Below are positions 3,301-49,189 of a stretch of DNA of 64,000 bases, one piece after another. This DNA is from Leucoraja ocellata. Lineage: Eukaryota. The stretch spans positions 6,386,001-6,450,000 of the forward strand of contig JAWMAR010000063.1 in assembly GCA_036785375.1 (NCBI GenBank), written 5' to 3'. The position numbers and the translations under genes were made by a program. The notes beneath the pieces were generated by a model that saw only the letters and a program-made list of their open reading frames with translations, did not search any database and was not told the DNA's origin. Position 1 is the first letter of the stretch. Each line of letters begins with the position of its first letter.

Positions 3301-4599
3301 ACAAAAGAATAATTTTAACTGGTATGGCACAACCATTACTTATAATTAACAAAAAAAGGAGAGCAGCTGGAGGAATTCAATGGGTCAAGCAGCATCTCTG
3401 GAGGGCAAATGGATAATCAAGGTTTCAATTGAGTTTGTTTTCAAAGGTATTTTGAGATTTTAGACATTTTTAGGATCACACCCACAAAAAGCACACTGTT
3501 CCACAAACAATCCAGTTGGCATCAAGTAACTGATGCTTTAGTTTGTTTCGCCTGGAATGGAAGGCATTATTGTAAGGAGAATTGTGCTGCATGCAGTTAG
3601 TGTCTCAGGTTAAAGACCCTTTGTCAGAAAGAGGAAAGGGAAAAAATAGAGGACCACGGGAAAAGAATCATGGAATTATGATAAAAATAAGCCTGGCGGC
3701 AAAAGAAAATGGTCAGCCCAGACAACTGGATCTTTGGGAAGAGGTAGAAACAGACCATGGCAGTGATGTAGAGAAGATCACCTGCGAAATTTAGGTCAGG
3801 ACTGCCTGGCAGGAAATGAGCTGCTTTTTAGTGATGGAGCCATGGTCCAGAGAGAGGCATAAGGAGGTGGTTGAGAACTGATATTTGTAAGAGCAAGACA
3901 GAGGTCAGTTTGCCAAACCACACAACATTATCCTCGTCAACAGGTCTGATAATGACACTAGGGTCACTCCTGACTAAACAAAGTGCTGCAAGTTCAGAAA
4001 GATTAGGTTACAATGTGTAAGTATAGTGGAAATATTGAGACAGTCAATGTTACAGTATCAGTTTACAATGAGATAAAAGCACTGGGTCTGGAAGCACTTA
4101 CGGTGAGAGAAAGTCAAAATTTCAGTTATCATGATCATTCTAATGAAAGATCATCAACCCTAAAAGCTGTCTGTTTCGCTCACTCAAGATGCTGCTTCAC
4201 CTACCGACTACTTTTGGCATTATCAGTTTTTGTTTCAGATTTCCAGGATTACTTTTGAAACGAATCAAAATAAAAATGACACCAGTCATCAATTTAACAA
4301 TTAACACATTTCCCAATTTTACCAATGCAAAGAAACCCAAGGATGAAATCTAATGAATAGCATTTGAATAAATACCACTCAATTTTTCATGCGATCAACG
4401 TTTGATTCTACAATTACTATCGAGTTGAACTGCACTCTTATGATTTTATAACATTTGCACTAAGTTCAATTTTAGATGAAAATGCTTAATAGCCATCAAA
4501 TTTTGGAATCAGCATGATGGAGGTAGTCAAGTCAAGTCAAGTTTATTCGTCACATACACATACGAAATGTACAGTGAAATGAGAGGGTATGGTGAGGGT

Positions 4600-6577
4600 A
4601 TGTCACTCCGCAACAACCCAGATTGGGTTATCAAACCAGCCGACAAGGGAGGTGCCGTGGTAGTCTGGCGTGTCGATCTCTACAAAGCTGAGGCCACGAG
4701 CCAACTCTCGGACACCTCCTCCTACTTACCCCTGGGCCATGACGCCACTGACGAGCACCAGGCCACCATCTCTAGCACTATCACCGACTTCATCAAATCC
4801 CACGCCTTGCTCGACCGAGCCTCCAACCTCATCGTTCCCCAGCCCCGCACGGCTCGATTTTACCTTCTCCCCAAAATCCACAAACCCGACTGTCCCGGTA
4901 GACCCATTGTCTCTGCCTGTTCGTGCCCCACCAAACTCATCTCCACTTACCTTGACTCCATCCTATCCCCCTTGGTTAAATCCCTTCCTACCTATGTTCA
5001 AGACACCTCAGACACTCTCCTCCGCCTCCTCGCATTCCATTCTCTAGGCCCTCACCCCCTCATCTTCACCATGGACGTCCAGTCACTCTACACCTCCATC
5101 CCCCACCAGGATGGTCTCAAAGCCCTCCAGTTCTTCCTCGACCAGAGAAGCAACCTATACCCAGCCACTGACACTCTCCTCCGCCCAGCGGAGTTGGTCC
5201 TTACCTTCAATAACTTCACGTTTGACTCCTCCCATTTTCTCCAAATACAAGACGTAGCTATGGGCACACGCATGGGCCCCAGCTATGCCTGCCTATTTGT
5301 CGGTTGGTTAAGTCGAGCAATCCTTGTTCAATACATACCAGGGCCCCATCCCCGACCTCTACCTCCGTTACATCGACGACTGCTTTGGTGCCACCTCCTG
5401 CACCCACACACAACTGACTGACTTCATCCACTTCACCACCAACTTCCATCCGGCACTCAAATACACCTGGACTATTTCCGACACTTCCCTACCATTCCTT
5501 GACCTCACTATCTCCATTGCAGGTGATAGACTTCTGACCGACATCCACTATAAACCCACTGACTCCCATGGCTATCTGGACTACACTTCTTCCCACCCTG
5601 CTTCCCCTACGCCCAATTCCTCCGCCTACGCCGCATCTGCTCCCAGGAGGAGGTGTTCCACACCAGGGCATCTGAAGAATGAGGACATTTCAGGGAATGG
5701 GGGTTACCCTCCTCCACCATAGATGAGGCTCACACCAGGGTTTCTTCCATATCCCACAACACTGCTCTCTCCCCATCCCCACTTGCAACAAGGGCAGAGA
5801 CCCCCTAGTCCTCACCTTTCACCCCACCAGCCGTCACATACAAGTAATCCTCCGTCTGTTTCGCCACCTACAACGTGACCCCACCACTCGCCACATTTTC
5901 CCATCTCCCCCCATGTCTGCTTTCCGCAAAGACCGCTCCCTCCGCAACTCCCTTGTCAATTCTTCCCTTCCCTCCCGTACCACCCCCTCCCCGGGCACTT
6001 TCCGTTGCAACCGCAAGAAATGCAACACCTGTCCCTTTACCTCCCCCCTCGACTCCATTCAAGGACCCAAGCAGTCGTTCCAGGTGTGACAGAGGTTCAC
6101 CTGTATCTCCTCCAACCTCATCTACTGCATCCGCTGCTCTAGATGTCAGCTGATCTACATCAGTGAGACTAAGCGGAGGTTGGGCGTTCGTTTTGCCGAA
6201 CACCTCCGCTCGGTCCGCAAGAACCTACCTGACCTCCCAGTGGCTCAGCACTTCAACTCCCCCTCCCATTCCCCGTCCGACCTCTCTGTCCTGGGTCTCC
6301 TCCATGGCCAGAGTGAGCAACACCGGAAATTGGAGGAACAGCACCTTGGGGAGTCTGCATCCTGCGGGGATGAACATTGAATTCTCCCAATTTTGTTAGC
6401 ACTTGCTGTCTCCTCCCCTTCCTCAGCCCTCAGGCTCCTCCTCCTCCTTTTTCCTTCCTTCTCCCCGCCACCCCCTATCAGTCTGAAGAAGGGTTTTGGC
6501 CCGAAACGTTGCCCATTTCCTTCGCTCCATAGATGCTGCTGCACCCGCTGAGTTTCTCCAGCATTTTTGTGTACCTA
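4600..6577 (+). mobile_element. Penelope-like retroelement (Neptune-type), 5'-truncated and frameshifted: RT + Cys linker + GIY-YIG endonuclease + pLTR
   Basis: RT motifs KPADKGGAVVV, FYLLPKIHK, PGRPIVS, MDVQSLYTSIP, AMGTRMGP and RYIDD. Linker CNRKKCNTC. Endonuclease LIYCIRC..YISETKR..RFAEH..VAQHFN. Confidence 0.92.
6483..6510 (+). ncRNA. Minimal hammerhead-like motif in the PLE pLTR
   Basis: CUGAAGA-A-GGGUUUUGGCCC-GAAAC-GUU. Confidence 0.55.
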
Positions 6578-7569
6578 AAGAAGTTAGTCATGGTCAGAGG
6601 TACAGTCAATACACATTACTACAGGATGCGTCTGAGTTTGTCTCTTGTCAACCCACCACAGGACGGGGGGGGGGGGAAAGCACCTCACCTGTGCAACGAT
6701 CTACGAAGAGACGGGCAACACCCTTGGACAGGCACAACTTTATGGCACGACCCCAATATCGGCTGAAAGGATTACACCACCTACAGGTGGCACCTGATCC
6801 ATTGACCCTATACAAGCTTCATCAGGATGGTTGTCAATTATGAGAGTGAGAACTGGTGGCCATACCTTTGGTTTGGTGGACTTTGTGGTACTGTGATACA
6901 TTATGGCTCTATCATTCCGCTAATTACTGCTCTAATACTTGCGTCCATTGTGTGTACCTACAGAGGACTGTGAATGTTATCATGTTTGATCAAAAGGAGG
7001 GAATGAAAGAGCTAATAGTCAAATCTAAATCTAAAATGGAGTCGTTCTTCTACAAAAGCTTGGACTAGTAGAACAAAAGAATGACTCGGTGCCAAGTCTG
7101 AATGACTTTGTAAATTATATGGAACACAATATGGAGGACAGGTTGTCAACAATAAATACAGTAAGATGACAGCCTGCAGTAATTACATGTGCTTCTTTTC
7201 AAGGCCATAAAGAAGCCAAGATGAAAAAAATAGCCAGCGCTCCAGAGGTAAGTAATAACTTGTTATTGGATGAGCTTGATTTGGACCCAGCTTTCCTATA
7301 TTGTGAAAGGCTACAGAATATTTAAGTCATGCCATATTCAGACTTGGTAGGAGCGTTTTACTGATAAGAAAAATGTATAATTGTGCTAACTCTCCTTTGT
7401 TCTGTGAGAGGGAGCCCAAGAAGCACTGAGCAACGTTTGTACTCATTGTAGATCTTTGCCACCCGTCTGACGAATCAATTAAAGATTGCCACGGTTTGCC
7501 TTTAACAGTTTTTTGTTGCTATCTGCTTTAAGAAATGTACTTTGACAAGGGGGAAACTGGACCGGTTCT

Positions 7570-8295
7570 CGATGCTGCACATACACAGACCCGCGCCTCA
7601 TCCGCAGCCAGGATCGAACCCCTGTCCCGCAAGCGCTGCCGAACCGCCACTGGACCGTACCCCCGAGTGTCTCATTCTCGCCCAGGAGGGCGGCTGGAGA
7701 CATCCGGACCAACGGGATGCCGGCCCGGAGCAGCAGCTCTACAGCAAGGATGGTCCCAGGCCTACAGCAAGCATGGAGAAGCGCCAACCCCAGCTCAACT
7801 CCATGCCCACCGTCCCAACAGACAGCCCCAGACCGACGGGACAGCGGCCCACAGCCAGCGCAGAGAAGCGCCAACTCCAGCCCAACCTCGTTCCAACTCC
7901 CGAGGAACCTACTCCCTGACGAGGCGGGCACCCCCGGGCCCACCCACCACCAGCCAACCCCCCTGGTGCCGGCTGCAGGTCCGTGACCGCCACTGCTCCA
8001 GGCCTGCGCCCCGGCTGCCGTCCAACCCGACTGAATAGGCAGAGCCGGGCTGGAGACAGTGTCTCCCACTCGCGCCGGCTGCAAGCCCAGGGCCATCCTG
8101 GCAGGGACGGGACACACGGGAGGGGACTGCCCAGCAGCAACTCAACAGTGCCCGCAGCGCAGGAGACCCGGGCCCGATCCTGAACACGGACGAAATGCAG
8201 GCCTGCACACAACGCAGCACCACAGCTGCCAAGAATGTTTATAGCAAGTGACCTATGATCTGGGCATGCGCAGTCAGAATACCAAACTTGCTTAT
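7570..8295. mobile_element. Second copy of the GC-rich foldback element
   Basis: The right end (8100-8295) aligns with 10510-10710 and the left part is inverted relative to it. A third fragment lies at 16184-16290. Confidence 0.7.
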
Positions 8296-9429
8296 ATAAA
8301 TTGGTTTAAAGGATCTAAATTCTACTTCAGTTCTGTTAAATATCGTTACAAGATATGCATAGAAAAAAAAGTTTTTATTATGAAGTGCAAAAAGACCACA
8401 GAATGCTTTGGATTTCATAGTCCTTTGCTGATAACACAAAGTGGGCATTTTATTCCATCCATTATTGAAACAGAATTAAAAGGAAGTTTTCCAGCACAGC
8501 AAGGAAAAATGTGACATTAAAATTGCTCAGCAGAGATTGTGAAACTATGAGCAAATAAAATAGCAATTTCAAAACAAAGAATAGATGTTGCAAAACATTT
8601 TGAGAATTGCAACAATTGAAATAAGAACAGTTACAGAAACACTGAGATGTCCACTTTAATTATTTTAGCATAGACTTTGTTTAACTTACCTCCCTGGGAA
8701 ACTAAACCACTCTTCTCCAAGGATACACTTCTAATCTAAATCAAGTCACTAATCAATGATCTGGTTACCTGATCAGGGACAGTGAGCAATTACTGATTAT
8801 TGTATATTTGTTTTGTTGTGTACTGCATTAATTGGCCTGTAAATCTGCAAAAAGAAAGAATTTCAATGTTCTATCCCCAGTACATATGACAATTAAACAC
8901 TGTTGACAATCCTAATGTGATGTTCAAGGTGGATGAGAAGATTGCTTTTGCTCAAGGTAATCAAATAGCAAAGCAACTTAGCTGGGTCAGTTGGGGTGGG
9001 GAAACTGAATAAAAGCAGAACATCTTGTTTTTAAAAGTTTCATCCCCCTGCGCACCTCTCAACAATTAACTTTGATCACTTTTTCAAAACATTAAGTCAC
9101 CAACAATAATACAATTTTCCTATTTACTTTACTTCCAAAATACATAATCGGATGTAAAGCACAAGGCTGTGTTATGCAGAATGTGCAACCATGAGAAACA
9201 TTAACAAACAAAATCAAGGATATTTTTAAAATGCATAAAGCAGAAGTAGATAACAAAAGTGTAGTTTCCATTAGAAACCAATTGTGACTTGGGTGTGAAG
9301 GCAGAAGATGTGTACATTTCTGAATAAATACATTGCATCACTCTTCACAGAAGAGCGGAACGATTACAGCAAGGGGAAACACTAATATTGTTAGTGAGGG
9401 ACAGTGAGCAAGTAACCGACTCATTTCCA

Positions 9430-9902: not shown

Positions 9903-10710
9903 ATAAGTGAGTTCGGTAGTCCGAAAAACGCAAGGAATCATGGGATTTTTCAACGATCACTCGCGATAAACATTCTCGGCAACTATGCTGCTGCTTGTGT
10001 ACAGACCTGCGTTTCATCCGTAATCAGGATCAAATCGGGTCTCCGGCGCTGCAAGTGCTGTTGAATTCCTACTGGACCGTCCCAGTCCCCTCCCGAGTGT
10101 CCCATCCCTGTCAGGGGGTGGCCGGAGATGTCTGCGGTGACCCTGGATTGGCGGGACACTGGCCCGCAGCAGTGGCAGCCCAGGCTTAAAGCCAGCACGG
10201 AGAAGAAGAGCTAACTCCAGCTCAACACTGCCTCTCCCACCGGGCTAACTGACAGCCCTGGACTGACGTGACACCGACCCGGAGCAGTGAAGTTAGCGCT
10301 TCTTCTCCGTGCTGGCTGTAAGCTTGGACCGCCACTGCTCCGGGCCGGTGTCCCGTCAGTCCAGGGCTGTCGGTTAACCCGGTGGGACAGGCGGATTTGA
10401 GCTGGGGTTAGCGCTTCTTCTCCATGCTGACTGTAAACCTGGGCCACCACTGCTCCGGGCCGGTGTCCCGTCCATCCAGGGTCACCCCGGACATCTCCAG
10501 CTGACCATGGACAGGCATGGGAGACTCGGTATGGGACGGGAATGGTCTAGTAGTAGTTCAACAGCGCTTGCAATGCCGGAGACACGTGTTCAATCCCGAC
10601 TACGGATGAAACGCAGGTCTGTATACATGCAGCAGCACAGCTGCCGAGAATGTTTATCGCGAGTGACCTATGACCTGGGCATGGGCAGTCGGAATACCAA
10701 ACACGCTTAT
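9903..10710. mobile_element. GC-rich foldback/MITE-like element, superfamily unassigned
   Basis: Imperfect long inverted arms (ATAAGTGAGTTCGGTAGTCCG...CGGAATACCAAACACGCTTAT; 9957-10115 vs 10510-10668). Confidence 0.75.
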
Positions 10711-29612: not shown

Positions 29613-29983
29613 NNNNNNNNNNNNNNNNNNNNNNNNNNNNNNNNNNNNNNNNNNNNNNNNNNNNNNNNNNNNNNNNNNNNNNNNNNNNNNNNNNNNNNNN
29701 NNNNNNNNNNNNNNNNNNNNNNNNNNNNNNNNNNNNNNNNNNNNNNNNNNNNNNNNNNNNNNNNNNNNNNNNNNNNNNNNNNNNNNNNNNNNNNNNNNNN
29801 NNNNNNNNNNNNNNNNNNNNNNNNNNNNNNNNNNNNNNNNNNNNNNNNNNNNNNNNNNNNNNNNNNNNNNNNNNNNNNNNNNNNNNNNNNNNNNNNNNNN
29901 NNNNNNNNNNNNNNNNNNNNNNNNNNNNNNNNNNNNNNNNNNNNNNNNNNNNNNNNNNNNNNNNNNNNNNNNNNNNNNNNNNN
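29613..29983. other. Assembly gap (371 N)
   Basis: Run of N. Confidence 1.
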
Positions 29984-31310
29984 TACTCAGATCTTGAGAG
30001 TATAAGACTTTGGGATATAGGTGATGATTATTTTGTTATAAAATTCTGCAAAGAACTGAATGTTACATTGGAACCAGCACGCAGTGCAACAGATAATTGT
30101 TGCAAGATACCATAAAGAAGTGATCAGTGCAACCTTCACCTTATTTCATTGCATCCTTTTCGGAACACGAACTACAAGTAATACAGAGATTTGCATGTTC
30201 ATTTTGGAAAAACATTATCGGCCTGTTTTAGTCATACATCTTCACAAATGTGTTTGTTAAACCTCATGCTGCCAACTTACCCATTAGTCAATCACCGTAA
30301 ATGCTTCCATACAGAATTAATCATATATCATTAGTCAGCACCCTGTATTACCTTCGAGTATCACAACACAATTGCATCAGTTTTCCAAAATATTGCTGAT
30401 TTTTAACAATATAATTATTGTAGGTCTTTTACGACTGTAACATCATTGATTTTAATGACAACACAAGATGTCTTAAGTGAAAGAAGTCAGGATTAATTTT
30501 TGCTTTGGTTGGTGGAATCAATTACTTCAACAGCAGGCAGCCGAGATATTAACCTGCACCAATTCAGAATCTTCATAAAATATTGGTTAATTTACAAGAG
30601 TAGTATTGTTATCTGCTAACTTTTACATCTTCAGTTTAGAATCAAGCTAAAAGAAGCTAACATTGGCACGATCAGAAACTATGCTGTAATTAAAACCAGG
30701 TTTTGAATGAAAATTCAATGAATACATCTGTTTAAATTACTTAATTAGAAGTATTCACGTGAAATTATTATTTACCCTCATACTGCGCAGTGCCATTTGT
30801 TTTTTTTTCCACTATTTGCTGTTTATAAATATAGACAAACTGAAAAGCCTTGCATTTAAAGCGTAATGATGGATCTATCCTTAGTTTCGCTCACAGTTAC
30901 AATACGAACCTCAGATTGATAAAATGACCGATGACAGGTTCAACCAGTACATTTCGATGCCGGCTTCAGTCACCATGCCCCGCTAACCACTGGAAATGTA
31001 CTGAGTGGAGTTACAAGATTCCCTTCATTCCCCAAAGAACAGTCGCAACATCACTGCAGTTAAGTTACTGCAAGTGCAATTTCTGGGCTGGGAAACCAGA
31101 CTTTTGACGTAACGATCGCCTGTCTAATTAACTTTCTCTTTGTAGTAGGGCCGTTTACAAATATCGCAACTAGTTTGCTGTCCTATTGGCGGGAGTGGTG
31201 TGAACCTCTCCGGTGCTGTACTTAAATCTCGCCCTGATCCCCCCGCCGCGCATTTCAGGGCGTTTTCGAGCATCTTCCCCAGTGCTATGTGTCGAGACAG
31301 CGCTTCGTAC

Positions 31311-31329
31311 CTGGGGTTCCGATTTCCAT
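31311..31329 (-). CDS. AGO3: First coding exon of the next Argonaute paralog, probably AGO3 (ATG GAA ATC GGA ACC CCA G| = MEIGTPG)
   Basis: Lies in the CpG island downstream of AGO1 on the same strand, with donor CAG|gtacga. The peptide resembles the vertebrate AGO3 N-terminus (MEIGSAG), and the position fits the known AGO4-AGO1-AGO3 tandem order. Only 19 coding nt are visible. Confidence 0.8.
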
Positions 31330-31787
31330 TCATGGAGCCCCTTCCTACACGCACTCCTTAGTTTGCTTTGCAGCAACCTCTTGACGGACGGCAGCAGCCG
31401 GCGGCGGCGGTCGGTCGGTCGGTCGGCCGAGCCGGTGACAGGCGAAGCTGGGCTGGGAACAAGTGGCTTGTCTCCGCTGGCGCACCTCCTGAGCGGCGGG
31501 GCCTCGGCTCTCCTCTCGCTGCTGACGGCTGGGAAATGCCGATGAGGCCTCTGGCTTACGGGCGGGGACGATGGATGCGGCTGACTCGGCGGCGCTGGCT
31601 GCTCCCTTCACTTTCTCCACGTTCCGGCCCCGCTCACCATCTACTTTTCTCTCTCGCTCTCTCCCTCTCTCCGCCGCTTTCGTCTTCTTTTTTAATTCTC
31701 ACCTACGGCGACTAAGCGGAAACACCGTCATCCAACCGCCGGATATGACGAGACCCGGACTGATTCATAAACATTCCGGGCGAGGGG

Positions 31788-31799
31788 CGTGACGTCACG
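31788..31799. promoter_or_regulatory. Palindromic CRE/ATF site (CGTGACGTCACG) with neighbouring AP-1-like TGATTCA (31761-31767) and ETS-like CCGGAA (31774-31779, minus)
   Basis: Full TGACGTCA consensus inside a 12-bp perfect palindrome, upstream of the putative AGO3 leader. Confidence 0.6.
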
Positions 31800-32334
31800 A
31801 CGCCTGCGTAATATTCAGGAATTCGACGTTACGTAGGATGTTATTATAATGAGGTCAGGGCGAGGATCTGACATTGGCGACGAGGACGAAGTGGCGTTTA
31901 ATGGAGTCGAACCAGCGTGGATTGCAGGTTTGAATTCATACGAGCCGAGTGGGGAAGCGAGTGTGGTGAATGAATGTACGTTGGGAGGCATGGTTAGAGG
32001 AATTAGATGCCTACGCAGACAGACGGAGACTGTTATGCGATGGGGCAACGCTGGTGCAGCTCACACGACGGCGAGCATCGTTATTGTACAGTTCTGGAGC
32101 TCCAGTTCAGGGGACTTTCAGGACGCTTCCAGAGACAGAAGGCAAAGTGGATTATGCGATCGATGGCTGTTGATGCGTTGACGAAGCACTTTTGTGGTGC
32201 GAACAAATCTACTACATGTCAATGACATGTATTTCGCCAGACGACACAGGGAGGGCTGCAACAATGGAGCTGAGTTGAGGAATCATCAGTGATCAGGTTG
32301 TACAAAGTTGGATATCAAATGGCGTGAGACACAA

Positions 32335-38828: not shown

Positions 38829-39082
38829 TTCAAGAAGGAACTGCAGATGCTGGATTCAATGTTCAATTCTCCCAATTTTGTTAGCCCTTGCTGTCTCCTC
38901 CCCTTCCTCAGCCCTCGGGCTGTCTCCTCCCATCCCCCAGCTCTCGGGCTCCTCCTCCTCCTTCCTTCCTTCTCCCCGCCACCCCTTATCAGTCTGAAGA
39001 AGGGTTTCGGCCCGAAACGTTACCTATTTCCTTCGCTCCATAGATGCTGCTGCACCCGCTGAGTTTCTCCAGAATTTTTTTA
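38829..39082 (+). mobile_element. Short PLE 3' fragment with inverted terminal segment
   Basis: Near-identical to 6375-6570. Begins with an inverted copy of the element end. Flanked by the direct repeat GCCATCTAGTG (38818-38828 / 39083-39093). Confidence 0.8.
38994..39021 (+). ncRNA. Minimal hammerhead-like motif
   Basis: CUGAAGA-A-GGGUUUCGGCCC-GAAAC-GUU. Confidence 0.55.
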
Positions 39083-39109
39083 GCCATCTAGTGCTCAATG
39101 CTCATATTA

Positions 39110-39870
39110 CTGGAGAAACTCAGCGGGTGCGGCAGCATCTATGGAGCGAAGGAAATAGGCAACATTTCGGGCCGAAACCCTTCTTCAGACTGATGTGGGG
39201 TGGGGGGGAGGTGGGAAGAAGAAAGGAAGAGCCAGAGGGCTAAGGGAGAGCTGGGAAGGGGAGGAGACAGCAAGGGCTACTGGAAATTGGAGTAGTCAAT
39301 GTTCAAGCCGCTGGTGTGCAGACTGCCCAAGCGGAATATGAGGTGCTGCTCACTCTGGCCATGGAGGAGACCCAGGGCAGAAAGGTCGGATTCGGAATGG
39401 GAGCGGGAGTTGAAGTGCTGAGCCACCGGGAGATCAGGTGGGTTAATGCGGACCGAGCGGAGGTGTTCGGCGGAACTATCGCCAAGGCTACGCTTGGTCT
39501 CACCGAGGTAGATCAGCTGACATCTAGAGCAGCGGATGCAATAGATGAGGTTGGAGGAGGTGCAGGTGAACCTCTGATGCACCTGGAACGACTGCTTGGG
39601 TCCTTGAATGTAGTCGAGTGGGGAGGTAAAGTGACAAGTGTAGCATCTCCCGCGGTTGCAAGGGAAAGTGCCTGGGGAGGGGGTGGTATGGGTGGGAAGG
39701 GAAGAATTGACCAGGGAGTTACGTAGCGAGCGGTCTTTGCGGAAAGCAGACGGGGGGGAGATGGGACGATGTGGCGAGTAGTGGGGTCACGTTGGAGGTG
39801 GCGAAAATGACGGAGGACTATTTGTTGTACGTGATGGCTAGTGGGGTGGAAGGTGAGGACCAGGGGCACC
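39110..39870 (-). mobile_element. Penelope-like element 3' part (GIY-YIG + pLTR)
   Basis: ORF 39277..39582 reads FTCTSSNLIYCIRCSRCQLIYLGETKR. Confidence 0.88.
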
Positions 39871-39931
39871 CCTCTTGCAAAGACAGGGTTCCCTACTCCC
39901 AATTCCTCTGTATCCACTGCATCTGCTCCCA

Positions 39932-42415
39932 GAAAAGATGAAGTATGATGGTAAGCTAGCCAAGAATATAAAGGAGGATAGTAAAAGCTTCTTTAGGTAT
40001 GTGAAGAGAAGAAAAAAAAAGACAAATGTGGGTCCCTTGAAGACAGAATCAGGTGAATTTATCGTGGGGAACAACAGTTCTGTCTACACAAACAATCTCC
40101 CAGATGTACTAGGGGACAGAGACCCTAGGGTGATGGAGGAACTGAAGGAAAATTCACATAAGTAAGGAGATGGTGTTGGGTAGACTGATGGGACTGAAGG
40201 CAGATAAATCCCCAGGGCCTGATGGTCTGCATCCCAGGATACTCAAGGAGGTGGCTCTAGAAATCATGGACGCATTGGTGATCATTTTCCAATGTTCTAT
40301 AGATTCAGGATCAGTTCTTGTGCATTGGAGGGGAGCTGATGCTGTCCCACTTTTCAAGAAAGGACAGAGAGAGAAAACTGGGAATTATAGATCAGTTAGC
40401 CTGACATAGGTGGTGGGGAAGATGCTGGAGGCTACTATAACAGATGAAATAGCGGCACATCTGGATAGCAGCAACAGGATAGGTCCGAGTCAGAATGAAT
40501 TTACGAAGGGGAAATTATGCTTGGAATTTTTTGAGGATGTAACAAGTAAAATGGACAAGGGAGAGCCAGTGGATGGAGCTAACTTGAACTTTCAGAAAGC
40601 CTTTGATAAAGTCCCACACAGGAGATTAGTGGGCAAGGAAGTCCAGAGGCGGCACGCACACCCCCATCCACATTAACGGGACGGAGGTGGAACGTGTTTC
40701 TAGCTTCAGGTTCCTGGGAGTCAACATCTCCGATGACCTCTCTTGGACCCACAATACCTCTACTCTGATCAAGAAGGCACATCAGCGTCTCTTCTTCCTG
40801 AGGAGACTGAAGAAGGTCCATCTGTCTCCTCAGATCCTGGTGAACTTCTACCGCTGCACCATCGAGAGCATCCTTACCAACTGCATCACAGTATGGTATG
40901 GCAACTGCTCTGTCTCCGACCGGAAGGCATTGCAGAGGGTGGTGAAAATTGCCCAACGCATCACCGGTTCCACGCTCCCCTCCATTGAGTCTGTCCAAAG
41001 CAAGCGCTGTCTGCGGAGGGCGCTCAGCATCGCCAAGGACTGCTCTCACCCCAACCATGGACTGTTTACCCTCCTACCATCCGGGAGGCGCTACAGGTCT
41101 CTCCGTTGCCGAACCAGCAGGTCGAGGAACAGCTTCTTTCCGGCGGCTGTCACTCTACTCAACAACGTACCTCGGTGACTGCCAATCACCCCCCCCCCCC
41201 CCCCCCCCCTCCGGACACTTATTATTTTTTTATTCAAATCGTTTGCTATGTCGCTCTTCAAGGGAGATGCTAAATTCATTTCGTTGTCTCTGTACTGTAC
41301 ACTGACAATGACAATTAAAATTGAATCTGAATCTGAAAATTAGAGCACATAGTATTGGGAGTAGGGTACTGACATGGATAGAAAATTGGTTGGCAGACAG
41401 GAAGCAATGAGTAGGGATTAACGGGTCACTTTCAGAATGACAGGCAGTGACTAGCGAGGTGCAGCAAGGCTCTGTGCTGGGACCGCAGCTATTTACAATA
41501 TACATTAAGGATTTAGATGAAGGAATTAAAAGTAATATTAGAAAATTTGCAGATGACACAAAGCTGGGTGGCAGTGTGAACTGTGAAGAGGATGCTATGA
41601 AAATGCAGGGTGACTTGGATAGGTTAGGTGGGTGGGCAGATGCAGTATAATGCAGATAAATGTGAGGTTATCCAATTTGGAGACAAGAACGGGAAGGCAG
41701 ATTATTATCTGAATGGTATCATGTTAGGAAAAGGGGAAGTACAATGAGACCTGGGTGTCCTAGTACATCAGTCATTGAAAGTAAGCATACAGGTGCAGCT
41801 GGCAGTGAAGAAGGTTAATGGCATGTTGGCCTTCATAACGAGAGGAGTTGAGTATAGCAGCAAAGAGGTCCTTCTGCAATTGTACAGGGCCCTGGTGAGT
41901 CCACACCTGGAGTATTGTGTGCAGTTTTGGTCTCCTAATTTGAGGAAGGACATTCTTGCTATTGAGGGAATGCTACGTGGGTTCACAAGGTTAATTCCCG
42001 GGATGGTGGGACTGTCATATGATGAAAGAATGGTGCGACTGGGCTTGTATTCACTGGAATTTAGAAGGATGAGAGGATATCTTATAGAAACATATAACAT
42101 TATTAAGGGATTGGACGCTACTTGCAGAAAACATGTTCTCGATGTTTGGGGAGTTCAGAACCAGGGGCCACAGTTTAAGAATACGGGGTCGGCCATTTAG
42201 AACTGAGATGAGGAAAAACTTTGTCACACAGAGTTGTGAATTTGTGGAATTCTCTGCTTCAGAAGGCAGTGGAGGCCGATTCACTGGATGCATTCAAAAG
42301 AGAGTTAAAGCTCTTAGGGCTAGCGGAATCAAGGGGTATGGGGAGAAGGCAGAAACGGGGTACTGATCCATGATCACATTGAATGGCGGTGCTGGCCCGA
42401 AGCCGGAATGGCTGG
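39932..42415 (+). mobile_element. CR1 LINE ORF2 fragment interrupted by a Rex1-like insertion
   Basis: KSPGPDGLHPRILKE, GNYRSVSLT, FQKAFDKVPH, QGSVLGPQLF and KFADDTKLGG. Confidence 0.92.
40638..41336 (+). mobile_element. Rex1/Babar-like LINE 3' fragment nested in CR1
   Basis: ERVSSFRFLGV..KKAHQRLFFLRRL..FYRCTIESILT..LPSGRRYRS; (AATCTG)n tail. The CR1 resumes directly after it. Confidence 0.88.
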
Positions 42416-43565: not shown

Positions 43566-43571
43566 TTTATT
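43566..43571 (-). terminator. Candidate distal polyadenylation signal (AATAAA)
   Basis: AATAAA preceded by U-rich sequence (TTTTCTATGTTTCTTTTCC) at the edge of the TE-poor block. Confidence 0.45.
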
Positions 43572-45059
43572 TTTTTAAAAACACTTGTGCAGCAAGGAAA
43601 AGAAACATAGAAAATTATAAATATTGTTAACTTCAGTATATTGGATCAGTGTAAGAAAATAAACTACTCTGCCTCAGTAAATTCTCAAGCATAACATCCA
43701 GCATCAAGGCTACACCTTAGCTGAGCATTTTATTTCAATAGGAATTTCCACAGACATGGCTTGGGAATGAATGGGCTCATTCTCCACTTCACAGGAAGTA
43801 AAGTTAGATGATTGGATTGATGAGTTATGAGCTTACTGAGGATTGGATCATCTCATACACTGTCAACTGATGCTGCCGAGATGAAAATGTTTCAAGCTAC
43901 TTTTAACTTCTGTTTAAAGAAATACCAGATTATCATTCTCTCTCTCTCTTTGCAGCTTTGAACTTTACCCTTATAGGCACAGACTTTTTATTCCAGTTCC
44001 ATAATTCCATCTTTTCAGCAATTAGACAATGAAAGGCACCATTACCAATCCCAATTTTGCTGCTTATACCACTGCATTCTTAGCAAGGGTTGGTTGATCG
44101 TGACCTGAAGCAGGTCCCTAATACAAAGATAATTACACACCCACTTGGAATTGACTAACACAACAAGTATCAAAGGAATTTGAGGTGCAGTAATTTGCTG
44201 AATACATTTAAGCTATTGGGAAAGCCCATTTTCACATAGACATTCTTTACCTGCATTAGATAAGAATAAAGATATGTACTTAATCAACCTTCGTAAACCA
44301 AGTCCTTTCGGATTGTTAGAATTCCACTATTTAAGGCAGCAGGGAGAATTAAATTCATGTAATTTGAAATTAATTTGTGCTTTTCTTGTTATACATCCCT
44401 TATTTGCTGCAAGGAGATATAATGATGCGCTCCCAGGCTTCTGTAAGTACACCAATATATATGTGTGGGATAAACAATAGTAACCCAGCCTGGTTTAATT
44501 TTCCTCTTCCAAAGTGTCCAAGCTAAAGTCAGGCAAACTCCAACTGGCAATGCGTTGCAGTAACACCACATTACAACCTTTCTAGGACTTGTGACATTGT
44601 TTACAACCATGTGAAAATCTTAATAGTTTACAGATTGTATCTAGGCACATTGAACATACTTGAGTAATGTCAATCATGCTCTCTTTTATGAGGAGTTTGA
44701 TGACCCCCTCTGTTGTGCTTTTCTTTAAGGTTAAACCATATACCCCATCAAGTGCATCTTATCCATTACTCTACACTGAAATAATTCATAAGAATTTCCC
44801 AACTCTATGTGCATTGCATGCCAATTACCTGAGAGATGCCACTAACATAAAGCTCTGTTATGGCCAGCTATAAAAGCCAGAAAGGGTTAAATTGAGGCGG
44901 TAATTTGCCTCTTACAGACATCAGATTTAATCTTACGTCGATTCCAATTCACTTTGATGCAATTGTTCAAAATTACCCTAAAATCTTCCATAATGGTGTG
45001 TCCGTCTATCTCTATAATCTGCCCAGCCCTAGGACTCTACAAGATTCGGACTCAAGGAC

Positions 45060-45420
45060 CCTAGAGGACTTGAGGGCCTGAGCTACAGGAAGAGGTTGGA
45101 CAGGCCAGGACTTCATGCCCTGGAGTGTTGGAGACCGACAGTGATCTTAGAGAGGTGTATAAAATCAGGGGAATAGATAGGGTGAACAGAATATTTTATG
45201 CAGTGTACAAAACAAGAACCAGAGGACAAAGGTTGAAGGTGAGAGGGGAAAGAGTTAATAAGAAACTGAGGGACAACCTTTTCCACATAGATGTGTATAT
45301 GGAACAAGCTGCTGGAGGTGGTAGTTGATGCTGATACCATAACAACACTTAAAAGTCATTTAATGGTCGGCATGGACAGGTTGGGCTGGAGGGCCTGTTT
45401 CTGTGCTGTATGGCTCTAAG
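45060..45420 (+). mobile_element. Old CR1 3' remnant
   Basis: DLREVYKIRGIDRV..TRTRGQRLKVRGER. Confidence 0.75.
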
Positions 45421-47458
45421 ATAGCTGCACTCCTTGAATTCTGGGCTTTAGATCATTCACAAATATATTTTCATTTTTTTGTCAAATGCCATTATCTGCA
45501 GGGTCCTAAACTCCCATCTATCCTCATTCTACAAACACTCCTCAAACCTAACATTTGATTAATCTTATGTTCATCTCCCATAACATCTTTGTATGTGGCT
45601 CATTGACATATTTTGTTTGACAATGCTGCTGAAGTGATACTTTGCACTTGGTTGTTCAGATAAAGAATGCAAATGTTCCCATGAAAACAGCTGGCAAAGG
45701 AATCATTGAGAAGACTGTGAATCTTCTATTTGTTTTTCTGAAGTTCAGACAGAGGCAGCTGAGGATGACAGGGTAAAGAATGACTTTATCCAGAAAAGGG
45801 CACATCAGTTAGGGTCTCAGTTGCTACAAAGCAACCATTGCTGCTGCAAGCAAGTTTGGTTATACTGAGATAGAATGGGATGGGAATCATGACCCTGATA
45901 TTTAACACTTCCTTCATTCATAAACATGTAGCATGTGGCACAAGATATCAAACATAAGGGAACATATACAGAACTAATTTCTACAAATCGTCTCCTTAAG
46001 GATGAAAGTTGAACAGGGTGGGGATGAAATCAATAGGTTTCACAAATAAAATTCAGGGTTGTGAAATGCTCTCTCATGGTTTACACTTGATAATTTTAGC
46101 TGTATTACTTTTTTAATGGCAGAAGTATTTACTGTCAATTTGTAGTGCTCTATTAATATGGAACATAGTATTTGTACAGCTTTTAGGCCTAATTTTCAAT
46201 CTTTATGCTCCTGTGCAAATGGTGAATATAAAATTATATCCCAAAATGAATACCAAATCGTAGAGCAAATATTGTGGGAAAACTTGCTTTTTTGGGTTTA
46301 CACATACCTCGATGTATATTGAAGTCTGTAAATATAGCATTGGGATATGTGTTGGAACATTTACTCGATCCTTGCAAGAAAAGGAGGAAAAGTTACCTTT
46401 ACTAAATTTGTACATCTCAATTTATGAATCAAATGGTAAAGCTGCACAAAATCTATTTAGTGGTTTCACAGGATGGTTGGTCCAATAAATTAAAATATAA
46501 TACCTGTAGAGGAGGGGAACTCCTCAAAGAATACAAGTATTTGCACCATCAGGGAACAATATAGAAAGCATTTTTCATACACCTTAATCAGGTGATGCGC
46601 ATTCAACAGGTTTTTATATTGGCAGTAGGTTACAAAACCAATTCTAAAGTTTACCTTCAGTGAAAATTTCTTAGAGCATAATAATATCCTTCTCGCCAGC
46701 AAAAAATGTGTATGTCAATACGAGCAAGATGATTATAAATCCAAATAGCAATTACATACTTCAACATTTGTATTGGTTTGCTTTATAGAAAATGGAATTT
46801 CAATCCTTTGAAGTAAATGACTTAAAAAAGGGATTTAAACTATGCTTCTTATTCATCCATGTGTGCTTTCAATTAATTAGCAGCTTCCAAAGAGAATTAC
46901 TGTGCGAGTTCAGCTGACGTGCAATTCTTCTGCTGAATAGCTAAAGATCATTCAAAAATTTCTTAAAAAGACTCCAGACTCTGCTTTATTCATTCAACTA
47001 TCTGCTAAAACTGAATCTATAAATCTACTTGTTTCATTGCGGCCATATTCAACCCCCATGTATAAAAGGGTCTGTGCAGGAGTGGCTCACAATATCAGTA
47101 AAAGTGAAGAGCAGCCATTGCAACCTTGTACGTTACTTAATGTGATATTTAAAAAAAAAAACTTTACAAGTTTCCATTTGTTCTACCTCAGATTCAAGAC
47201 TTATTAGCGTTTCCATATATTCATAATAACTTTCTAAAGTCCAGACTTTAGAAAGTGACCACATAACATTAAGATCTCTTTCGATTGTGTATATACACAA
47301 TTTTCTGTACTTGCTTGGATGAAACACGAAAGCACAATAAAAATAATGTCAAAAGAACATAAACAGGTTGAAAATGATTGATTAGTTTGTGCCAAGTTAA
47401 GAAAATGTCCATCAGACTTACAAATTCAAATAATTACTAGTCCAGGCACTAAGTTGAA

Positions 47459-47594
47459 TGGTTGTGTAAGAAGGAACTGCAGATGCTGGAAAATCGAAGG
47501 TAGACAAAAATGCTGGAGAAACTCAGCGGGTGAGGCAGCATCTATGGAGCGAAGGAAATGGGCAACGTTTCGGGTCGAGACCCTTCTTCAGACT
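47459..47594 (-). mobile_element. ~135-bp solo PLE terminal element with hammerhead-like motif, inserted in the AGO1 3'UTR
   Basis: Matches the PLE terminus at 6480-6577. Flanked by the 11-bp direct repeat ACTAAGTTGAA (47448-47458 / 47592-47602). Confidence 0.85.
47564..47591 (-). ncRNA. Minimal type I hammerhead ribozyme-like motif
   Basis: CUGAAGA-A-GGGU(CUCG)ACCC-GAAAC-GUU. The core boxes and helix II are intact; helix III is a loopless palindrome and helix I is weak. Confidence 0.6.
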
Positions 47595-47990
47595 AAGTTG
47601 AACAGTTCAGCTTTTGGACCTGTGGAATTTTTTTTAACCCTTGAACAATTCAATTGAAGTAGCTGCTTTCTGAGCATTTGTAATCCTCGTGTCTAAAAAC
47701 TAAAAGGAGTTTGGCAGTGAACATTTGCACTTTACATTAAGTCATCAATATATTGCATAAATACATGTAAAAAATAAAACATAAATGTGAAATGTGTTTT
47801 TTGTCATCTATAATATGCTTGGCCAATCTTTCTCCACCAGTTATTAGTTCTTTGAAAAATGCTCTTGTAAAATACAACTTGATCCCTTCCAACCTCCAAG
47901 ACACATCCTGTAGAAGGTGCTTATATGTTCTTGCATGGCTGCTTATAGTCCAGAAGGCTGGTAAGTTGAAGTGACTGAATATTCAGAGAG

Positions 47991-48099
47991 TTAAGCAAAG
48001 TACATTGTGCGTAAGGTATCCTGGTGAACTTGTACAGCTTTAGCCAGTGCCTGGGGATCCCGTCCATTACTCTGTCCAGAGATATGACTGCCTTCGCCA
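47991..48099 (-). CDS. AGO1: Argonaute-1 terminal coding exon ([36 protein letters not shown])
   Basis: Acceptor tgtttacag|. Encodes the canonical AGO C-terminus TMYFA, with a TAA stop at 47991-47993. Confidence 0.96.
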
Positions 48100-49189
48100 C
48101 TGTAAACAAAATAAGAAAAGTGAACTCAATTCATTTGTCTACTCCAACCACTTCTGCAGAAGATATTAGCAAATATTTTATAACCCAGTTAGTGACCAGC
48201 AGCTGTAACTGGCGACGATGAGGGAAGCTTGTGGCCAGAGTAGTTGACTATTTAATGAACTAATGCAGAAAGAGGCGAGTTGTTTTTGAAAGAGCGAAAA
48301 CAAGTGAGCCATTAGCCATTTCTAATACAGCTAATTTATCAAGTGCCCGCAAGAAAACCTTCCTAAAGATGTTTATCATTACATCTTTAGTTTCCCAACC
48401 TAGTTTTTCCATTACGACATCCTAGGGTATCTCAGTTGCCCTAGATACAGGTAATAACAACATTTTTAACACCATGTCGATCAAACCATTTCTGTCATTT
48501 TCCATGAAACAAGCCCCATGTTGGTTCTCCCGATCCAAAGGGAGCAAACTGAAGAAAAATCTAGTGTGCAATTAATTAGCAGCTCTATCAAATAAAAATT
48601 ACTGTATTCTAGTTAGTGAATAGGGTGGGGGGCGGGGAGAAGAGAAGCGATAAATTTCAGTTTATTTTCTTCACCGGGTGCTCCTTATTCCCCAATTATT
48701 CCTCCAAATTGAAATTATTCCCCAATATCCCTCCAAACTCACTTTGATTATGAGAAGTTCATGGGACTTCCTCAACACCATACCGGCCTTACCCAAAGCA
48801 ATTACATATCTCAGCCAGTTTCCGTCCTTGGCCAGGTCCTTAACCGCCCCATTTGAGATCTACTTTTGTTTTCATTAAATTACTGAGTAACCGTATTTCC
48901 GTCCTGTATGTCAGTTGCCCATGTTAATGGTTACATCTTTGGGGCACCGTAACAAAACCTTTCACATTTACCATTGCAATCACCTGGAAAAAATCCCCTT
49001 AACCCGTCTGTGCTTACAAACCCCTCATTCAACTTCAATGTCCCTGCTTTTCCAAGATTCCAGAAGGTATTCTGGCACTTCCCACCAATCTCTTTCTCCA
49101 CTAGGTCGAAAAATGTTTCAGTGCCCCTTCCTACATAATTTGTCAATTTCAGTACCTTTTTCACCAACTTCCATCAAACCCTGAAATTT

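What the first reader, a model, noticed from the sequence alone, without database searches (positions are those of the whole stretch)
47448..47602. Hammerhead-ribozyme-bearing mini-element in sense orientation inside the AGO1 3'UTR
Seen: ~400 nt after the AGO1 stop, a TSD-flanked ~135-bp insertion puts AGU-CUGAAGA-A-GGGU(CUCG)ACCC-GAAAC-GUU on the mRNA strand, upstream of every candidate poly(A) signal. Known: Penelope-like elements carry minimal hammerheads with a palindromic loopless helix III that are thought to cleave as dimers, and 3'UTR hammerheads can lower mRNA output. Inference: a TE-donated self-cleaving element could tune expression of a core RNA-silencing gene. Caveat: helix I has only ~2 bp here and no second sense copy lies in the UTR, so it may be inert unless a partner RNA is supplied in trans.
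Basis: partly seen in the sequence, partly recalled or inferred. Interest (0 to 1): 0.7.

Follow-up and report, generated by a model that had tools for sequence, protein, structure and literature searches.

The report
Penelope retrotransposon tip in AGO1 UTR
A short end piece of an extremely common jumping gene sits in the tail of the AGO1 message; it carries the known minimal self-cutting RNA motif, but it is one of roughly a hundred thousand similar copies and is likely an inert passenger, not a regulator.

Summary
A 132-134 nt insertion (47594-47461, minus strand), with an 8-11 bp target duplication, lies 396 nt after the AGO1 stop, in sense, before every poly(A) hexamer. It carries an intact minimal hammerhead core. 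It is the pLTR tip of a Penelope-like element: an RT/GIY-YIG copy in the window ends in the same sequence (94%).

The family is enormous: 437 hits in 799 kb sampled, 35 with an intact core. A sense, hammerhead-bearing copy falls in 227 of 480 UTR-sized tiles, so this placement is what chance gives. This copy is ordinary in divergence and CpG retention. It has a 2-bp helix I, stem II is predicted 1-9% formed, and no cis partner exists. Sense copies are not depleted in AGO introns (27 vs 22). Likely-RNA contigs of a relative cross the core with no depth step. Regulation of AGO1 is unsupported, though the insertion is shared with that relative and cleavage was not assayed.

This scan already found the family on other DNA of this genome. 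Side result: the mini-elements look like run-off cDNAs from an internal priming site to a likely initiator-type start at the hammerhead's front edge.

The parts
47461..47594 (-). Penelope-like element pLTR tip (mini-element with tail), 132-134 nt, sense to AGO1
   Evidence: 93.8% identical over 97 nt to the end of the ORF-linked copy at 6480-6576; family boundaries
47562..47593 (-). Minimal type I hammerhead: helix I 47593-47592 with 47563-47562; CUGAAGA 47591-47585; extra A 47584; stem II 47583-47580 with 47575-47572; GAAA 47571-47568; palindromic loopless helix III 47568-47565; U17 at 47564
   Evidence: descriptor scan, alignment, pair counts
47461..47498 (-). Optional ~36-nt tail between the family's two 3' ends
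   Evidence: loose ends at 47463/47467-8 and 47498-9/47506-7; 115 hits end at model 131-136 and 144 at 93-105, of 437
47592..47602 (-). Target-site duplication, upstream copy (last 3 nt shared with the element start)
47448..47458 (-). Target-site duplication, downstream copy
47991..48100 (-). AGO1 last coding exon and TAA stop
   Evidence: contigs of three likely-RNA runs leave the genome at 48101 or end there
43586..47990 (-). AGO1 3' UTR, about 4.4 kb, likely ending at the AATAAA at 43571 or 43734
   Evidence: contigs of X8, X14, X19 cover 26-28 of 30 bins down to 43586 and little or none of the upstream intron (RNA status is the tool's guess)
4480..6576 (+). Broken parent-type Penelope-like copy: RT, CX4CxxC linker, GIY-YIG-type endonuclease, pyrimidine tract, hammerhead, tail-less end
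39102..39992 (-). Second ORF-linked copy (endonuclease end plus hammerhead at 39188); nearest intact sense copy, 8.4 kb downstream and beyond the covered UTR

Best explanation
The insertion is the 132-134 nt hammerhead-bearing tip of a very abundant Penelope-like retrotransposon family, and it likely sits in the AGO1 3' UTR as a neutral, non-cleaving passenger. Shown: identity with ORF-linked copies, target duplication, the two family 3' ends about 36 nt apart, the 5' edge at the hammerhead front, copy density, and sharing of both junctions with organism F. Inferred origin: the element's RT primed internally at the AC-rich end and ran off the 5' end of an uncleaved element RNA that likely starts at the A of TCAGT (initiator-like, recalled consensus), three bases before the core; target-primed insertion then left the duplication. 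Inferred inertness: a loopless helix III needs a second hammerhead and probably the element's protein, helix I has 2 bp, an alternative hairpin buries G16.2/C15.2 and the core, and the mRNA holds no partner.
For: Abundance: 437 hits in 799,400 bases, 77 of 80 stretches hit, 35 intact cores; 227 of 480 strand-specific 4.4-kb tiles hold a hammerhead-bearing copy and 41 of 480 an intact one. Ordinary copy: 5.3% from its subfamily majority (median 6.1%, n=14); 6 of 6 CpG kept, as in 4 of 14 kin; GUU|G is the subfamily state in 10 of 14. Folding: stem II 1-9% in five contexts, helix I 0; the dimeric active fold is 11.7 kcal/mol above two monomers, and 7 of 32 intact copies have a lower penalty. Orientation in 180 kb of AGO4/AGO1/AGO3 gene bodies, sense vs antisense: 27 vs 22 hits (p 0.57), 13 vs 11 hammerhead-bearing, 4 vs 2 intact. 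Only 13 of 437 hits start near the cut site, against 84 abrupt plus 36 inverted starts at the core's front edge among 172 scored, so templates were uncleaved; an organism F contig runs from spliced exons through the core to 47544; depth is 24 upstream, 20 and 15 downstream; 8305 raw poly(A) reads, nearly all from other copies, show no place where many molecules begin or end. Literature (sections read): single min-HHRs showed no cleavage and dimers little (PMC4209133); the Anolis PLE hammerhead cleaved only with PLE protein, and no RNA-seq ends were found at its site (PMC11167929).
Against: The core is intact, which holds for only 35 of roughly 295 copies that include the front end. The insertion is on both haplotypes, identical (0.5% flank divergence makes this uninformative), and is shared with organism F, whose distal UTR differs by about 5%. 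It lies in the better-conserved proximal UTR (11 differences in 558 nt, of which 111 nt coding). The 5 kb below the AGO3 and AGO4 stops hold no copy, and AGO1 introns hold few (6 in 50 kb), so local density is below the genome mean. Family RNA is abundant in poly(A) reads, so trans partners exist. The contig bridges the cut with only 20 letters on one side, below the tool's 31-letter rule; contig depth is a poor expression measure; AGO1 itself was not sampled in the raw reads. Nearest-neighbour energies ignore tertiary and protein help. The orientation test has little power for intact copies (n=6).
Confidence: 0.85

Rival explanations
1. Conditional switch: the motif cleaves AGO1 mRNA only when PLE protein and a second family RNA are present, lowering AGO1 when the element is active (element counter-silencing or host feedback).
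For: Intact core, sense orientation, upstream of all poly(A) signals; shared with organism F and family RNA abundant; protein-assisted cleavage shown for the Anolis PLE (PMC11167929, sections read).
Against: Placement expected by chance; no sign of special preservation; 2-bp helix I and an 11.7 kcal/mol penalty. The Anolis element needed RNA well 3' of its RT start sites (first 172 nt of the ORF, starts at 111-118), whereas this tip ends at the start site (by analogy, different clade). Family RNA appears on both read orientations, so antisense copies could also mask it (strandedness not established).
Confidence: 0.05
2. The insertion affects AGO1 without catalysis: as an internal promoter or initiator giving a sense RNA of the distal UTR, as a pairing site for antisense family RNAs or piRNAs, or through a structure or binding site.
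For: The 5' edge context TTAGT resembles the family's TCAGT (26 of 40 long copies); Penelope has an internal TATA-less promoter (PMC2377424, passages read); family RNA is abundant.
Against: No depth rise downstream of the element in X19, X8 or X14 (weak); the element folds no better than shuffles (z -1.1); the same would hold for very many genes.
Confidence: 0.08
3. Constitutive monomeric self-cleavage that shortens or destabilises AGO1 mRNA, as for CLEC2.
For: Location in a 3' UTR, as for the CLEC2 hammerhead (PMC6155905, passages read).
Against: Helix III has no loop and cannot close in a monomer; helix I pairing probability 0; monomeric min-HHRs were inactive (PMC4209133); the long UTR is covered on both sides at similar depth.
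Confidence: 0.02

Closest known systems
[quoted passage not shown]
   Same: Conserved core, extra base between positions 9 and 10.1, G10.1-C11.1 pair, palindromic loopless 15.2-16.2, mostly solo copies from truncated PLEs
   Different: Stem II 4 bp and helix I 2 bp (7-8 and 4-5 bp in Schistosoma; 2 bp also in D. virilis); U at 17 in this subfamily; estimated copy number far above the 4,000-9,000 reported for coelacanth and Xenopus; no shark or skate names in the supplement file searched
Neptune-type EN+ Penelope-like elements (PMC8557442, passages read)
   Same: RT, then CX4CxxC linker, then C-terminal GIY-YIG-type domain, then pLTR with hammerhead; optional 30-40 bp tail; inverted 5'-truncated partners (36 of 172)
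   Different: No tree was built, so the clade rests on the linker motif; window copies are frameshifted
Poseidon PAc of Anolis (Frangieh 2024, PMC11167929; parts 1-2 of 4 read)
   Same: Two insertion ends a tail-length apart in an AC-rich stretch; uncleaved RNA as template
   Different: Here the products also share a sharp 5' edge 3 nt before the core; no ORF start was located inside the tip
CLEC2 3' UTR hammerhead and the RECK/CTCL intronic hammerheads (PMC6155905, passages read)
   Same: Hammerhead motif in the sense strand of a host transcript
   Different: Those are described as self-cleaving or ultraconserved co-opted motifs (CLEC2 a discontinuous type III); this is one of about 10^5 intact copies with no closed helix III and no shown conservation
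Non-LTR retrozymes (bioRxiv 10.64898/2026.07.22.740005; part 1 of 5 and passages read)
   Same: Non-autonomous, type I hammerhead, PLE pLTR-derived, reported in one chondrichthyan
   Different: Retrozymes are defined by tandem units each with a hammerhead; this copy is solo, and 3 of 172 sampled copies looked tandem

Membership tests
Metazoan PLE min-HHR | CUGANGA and GAAA core with NUH triplet | tested here: met
   CUGAAGA, GAAA, GUU
Metazoan PLE min-HHR | Unpaired base between 9 and 10.1; G10.1-C11.1 pair | tested here: met
   A47584; G47583-C47572; 11 of 12 distinct rows G-C
Metazoan PLE min-HHR | Palindromic 15.2-16.2, loopless helix III | tested here: met
   ACGU at 47568-47565
Metazoan PLE min-HHR | Covariation supporting the helices | tested here: inconclusive
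   92.7% of cells paired, one-sided U-A/U-G changes, but 112 of 500 shuffles reach the score
Metazoan PLE min-HHR | Located in the pLTR of an RT + GIY-YIG element | tested here: met
   Same sequence about 80 nt after the ORF end at 6480 and 39191; Atlas leads RVT_1/DUF8422 at 0.96 and GIY-YIG at 0.96 (family shares 12-22% for RVT_1 and GIY-YIG); Pfam RVT_1 only E 0.0014, below cut-off
Metazoan PLE min-HHR | Cleavage as a dimer or with protein | not testable with these tools
   Needs a bench assay
Neptune clade | CX2-5CxxC linker between RT and EN | tested here: met
   CNRKKCNTC in the frame 5727-6089; criterion from PMC8557442
Neptune clade | RT phylogeny groups with Neptune | not tested
   No reference set on hand
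Rfam hammerhead families | Covariance-model match | tested here: not met
   No hit
Non-LTR retrozyme | Tandem units each with a hammerhead | tested here: not met
   Single copy with target duplication
Domesticated host-mRNA hammerhead (CLEC2/RECK type) | Foldable as a monomer or in cis | tested here: not met
   Helix I probability 0, stem II 1-9%, no cis partner
Domesticated host-mRNA hammerhead (CLEC2/RECK type) | Orthologous conservation beyond neutral expectation | tested here: inconclusive
   Present in organism F; the orthologous letters were not obtained; no excess preservation within the family

The most novel reading that the evidence does not exclude
A Penelope-derived minimal hammerhead in the AGO1 3' UTR is a protein- and partner-gated cut site: when the Penelope-like element is expressed, its RNP folds the motif with a family RNA and clips AGO1 mRNA (and other sense-bearing mRNAs), coupling retrotransposon activity to Argonaute dosage.
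Probability: 0.05. Interest if true: 0.85.

Novelty: new member of a known kind. Interest (0 to 1): 0.15.

Why it matters
As a likely inert insertion it matters little: many genes in this genome would carry such a copy. If gated cleavage were real, it would be a retrotransposon ribozyme acting on a core silencing gene, and it would imply a transcriptome-wide effect of about 10^5 intact motifs. The side result is more useful. Sharp ends at both sides of the mini-elements match the run-off product expected from internal priming (PMC11167929) and point to a likely transcription start 3 nt before the core, which would explain the 2-bp helix I and is testable by CAGE or 5'-RACE.

Tried and rejected
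Rfam: no hammerhead hit. Pfam at E<=0.001: 0 of 4 PLE fragments; at E<=10 only a weak RVT_1 in 1 of 4. Run search: no RNA holder listed as such on record, which is no evidence either way. Raw reads X22 (6% of the run) had zero depth on unique UTR, so they say nothing on AGO1 cleavage. Organism B contigs break near the element and do not show presence or absence. No lay on DNA of organisms B-E was obtained, so presence there and the orthologous letters remain open. Distal extension of helix I with upstream sequence: the best duplex is out of hammerhead register, both here and in the ORF-linked copy. Higher core conservation within the family (0.94-0.99 vs 0.87-0.93) was rejected as evidence, because copies were chosen for matching the 5' end. 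GUU as decay: rejected, it is a subfamily trait (16 of 35 intact cores); that GUU cuts more slowly than GUC is recalled only, and PMC3138052 (passages) merely lists it as cleavable. Splice acceptor as the cause of the 5' edge: disfavoured, since in 4 of 10 copies with a duplication it ends at or before the A, so the first bases are element-derived. Literature searches that showed nothing on this locus or on a skate PLE hammerhead, judged from listings and abstract starts: (swamped by ecology papers). bioRxiv supplements and one supplement file of PMC4209133 were not seen and may list the family. Look-up of earlier findings by sequence gave nothing.

Full report
Observation. The gene is AGO1 on the minus strand. 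An internal exon matches human AGO1 best and is identical over 64 residues; the C-terminus ends at TAA 47993-47991; paralogous exons place it in an AGO4-AGO1-AGO3 cluster. The host is likely a cartilaginous fish; this rests on recall of its repeats and was not tested. At 47594 the mRNA strand reads AGU-CUGAAGA-A-GGGU(CUCG)ACCC-GAAAC-GUU, with a predicted cut at 47564|47563. An 11-nt direct repeat flanks the insertion, 8 nt of it outside the element. All eight AATAAA/ATTAAA hexamers between the stop and 43300 lie downstream. Contigs of three likely-RNA runs from relatives cover 26-28 of 30 bins down to 43586 and stop at the exon boundary, so the UTR is about 4.4 kb and includes the site (RNA status is the tool's guess). 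Rfam has no match.

What it is. The same sequence ends two ORF-bearing copies in the window, at 6480 (+, 93.8% over 97 nt) and 39191 (-), about 80 nt after the ORF. Their frames give Atlas leads to RT clusters and GIY-YIG clusters at 0.96, a weak Pfam RVT_1 hit below cut-off and a CX4CxxC linker, which PMC8557442 (passages read) ties to Neptune PLEs. The motif has each trait listed for metazoan min-HHRs in PMC4209133 (parts 1-2 read): the extra base after A9, G10.1-C11.1 and a palindromic loopless helix III. Pair counts are compatible with the helices but do not exceed shuffles (112 of 500).

How common. I took 80 ten-kb stretches at round positions on large contigs, 799,400 bases (spread by hand, not strictly random). 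A profile of the tip gave 437 hits, with 77 of 80 stretches hit; a strict descriptor gave 35 intact cores against 0 in five shuffles. Scaled to the 3.44-Gb assembly, which holds both haplotypes at this locus, that is about 1.9 million hits and 150,000 intact cores, perhaps half per haploid genome. Of 480 overlapping strand-specific 4.4-kb tiles, 227 hold a hammerhead-bearing copy and 41 an intact one. Density around the AGO cluster is lower, 142 hits and 11 intact cores in 464 kb. A sense copy in this UTR needs no explanation, and an intact one is a roughly 1-in-12 event per long UTR.

How it arose. 3' ends cluster at two sites: 115 of 437 hits at model 131-136, 144 at 93-105 and 50 between. 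Loose ends in four runs fall at 47463-47468 and, in three, at 47498-47507. This is the 30-40 bp PLE tail, which PMC11167929 (parts 1-2 read) traces to two internal RT start sites in an AC-rich stretch. Of 172 copies that include the front end and scored at least 60 bits, 84 begin abruptly at the hammerhead's edge, 36 are inverted junctions, 49 extend into the pLTR and 3 are tandem (some of the 84 keep a few pLTR bases). Only 13 of 437 begin near the cut site. Ten of 31 full-length abrupt copies have a target duplication, against 0.17 with swapped flanks. In 4 of the 10 it ends at or before the first A, which argues against a splice-acceptor edge. The edge reads TCAGT in 26 of 40 long copies, like an initiator (recalled), and Penelope has an internal TATA-less promoter (PMC2377424, passages read). 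I infer that the mini-elements are run-off cDNAs of uncleaved RNA that starts 3 nt before the core.

Does it cut AGO1? Probably not. The monomer cannot close helix III. Predicted stem II occupancy is 1-9% and helix I 0 in five contexts, and the dimeric active fold costs 11.7 kcal/mol against two monomers; 7 of 32 intact copies do better. The UTR has no second copy, AGO1 introns have no intact one, and the nearest intact sense copy is 8.4 kb downstream. In 180 kb of AGO gene bodies (AGO3 intron 1 inferred) sense copies are not depleted: 27 vs 22, 13 vs 11 and 4 vs 2 for all, hammerhead-bearing and intact (low power for intact). The copy is 5.3% from its subfamily majority (median 6.1%, n=14), keeps 6 of 6 CpG like 4 of 14 kin, and shares GUU|G with 10 of 14 (72 full-length copies of the 437 hits were used). 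In organism F one contig runs from upstream exons through the core to 47544, 20 letters past the cut and so short of the tool's bridging rule, at depth 24 against 20 and 15 downstream. Among 8305 raw reads, nearly all from other copies, no place shows many ends. In print, single min-HHRs did not cleave and dimers barely did (PMC4209133); the Anolis motif needed PLE protein and showed no ends in RNA-seq (PMC11167929).

Against this reading. The core is intact, as in about one in eight copies that include the front end. The insertion is on both haplotypes, and both junctions appear in organism F, whose distal UTR differs by about 5%. It lies in the more conserved proximal UTR. Family RNA is abundant in poly(A) reads, so trans partners exist. 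The orthologous letters were not obtained, so selection on the core is untested, and no cleavage assay exists.

Verdict. The feature is real and correctly described, and it is a new member of a known kind. A likely neutral passenger (0.85); non-catalytic effect 0.08; gated cleavage 0.05; constitutive cleavage 0.02. Five earlier notes of this scan describe the same family and its sharp edge on other DNA of this genome; I saw them after reaching this reading, and they are not independent support. Interest 0.15.

Noticed in passing
window 47594 and family-wide (L031-L110): Sharp 5' edge of mini-elements at the A of TCAGT, 3 nt before the core; likely a transcription start rather than a splice acceptor or the ribozyme cut.
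   Followed up: partly
window 38961-39221: An ORF-linked copy with an inverted partner 37 nt away forms a 112-nt palindrome of two intact hammerheads on opposite strands; a similar pair lies at G000:C63:6347107/6347276 in an AGO3 intron.
   Followed up: no
window 47544-48101 vs 43586-47491: In organism F the proximal UTR plus last exon differs at 11 of 558 positions, the distal UTR at 65 of about 1397 and 88 of about 1675: the proximal UTR looks constrained.
   Followed up: no
window about 45040-45450: A second, different interspersed repeat lies inside the AGO1 UTR (high depth in all four runs).
   Followed up: no
window about 31000-32000 (-): GC-rich stretch with a likely first exon and start codon of AGO3, about 12 kb below the AGO1 UTR end.
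   Followed up: partly
window 47991-47943 (-): The AGO1 stop is TAA with 15 open codons before the next stop; the human AGO1 read-through isoform uses a TGA stop (recalled), so read-through may not be shared.
   Followed up: no
L008, L018, L020, L022, L027: Several family copies continue 3' into one and the same other repeat, with overlap at the AC-rich end, suggesting a preferred target or 3' microhomology.
   Followed up: no
window 10036-10586: 254-nt inverted repeat, 83% complementary, 43-nt spacer.
   Followed up: no
window 29613-29983: A run of 371 N.
   Followed up: no
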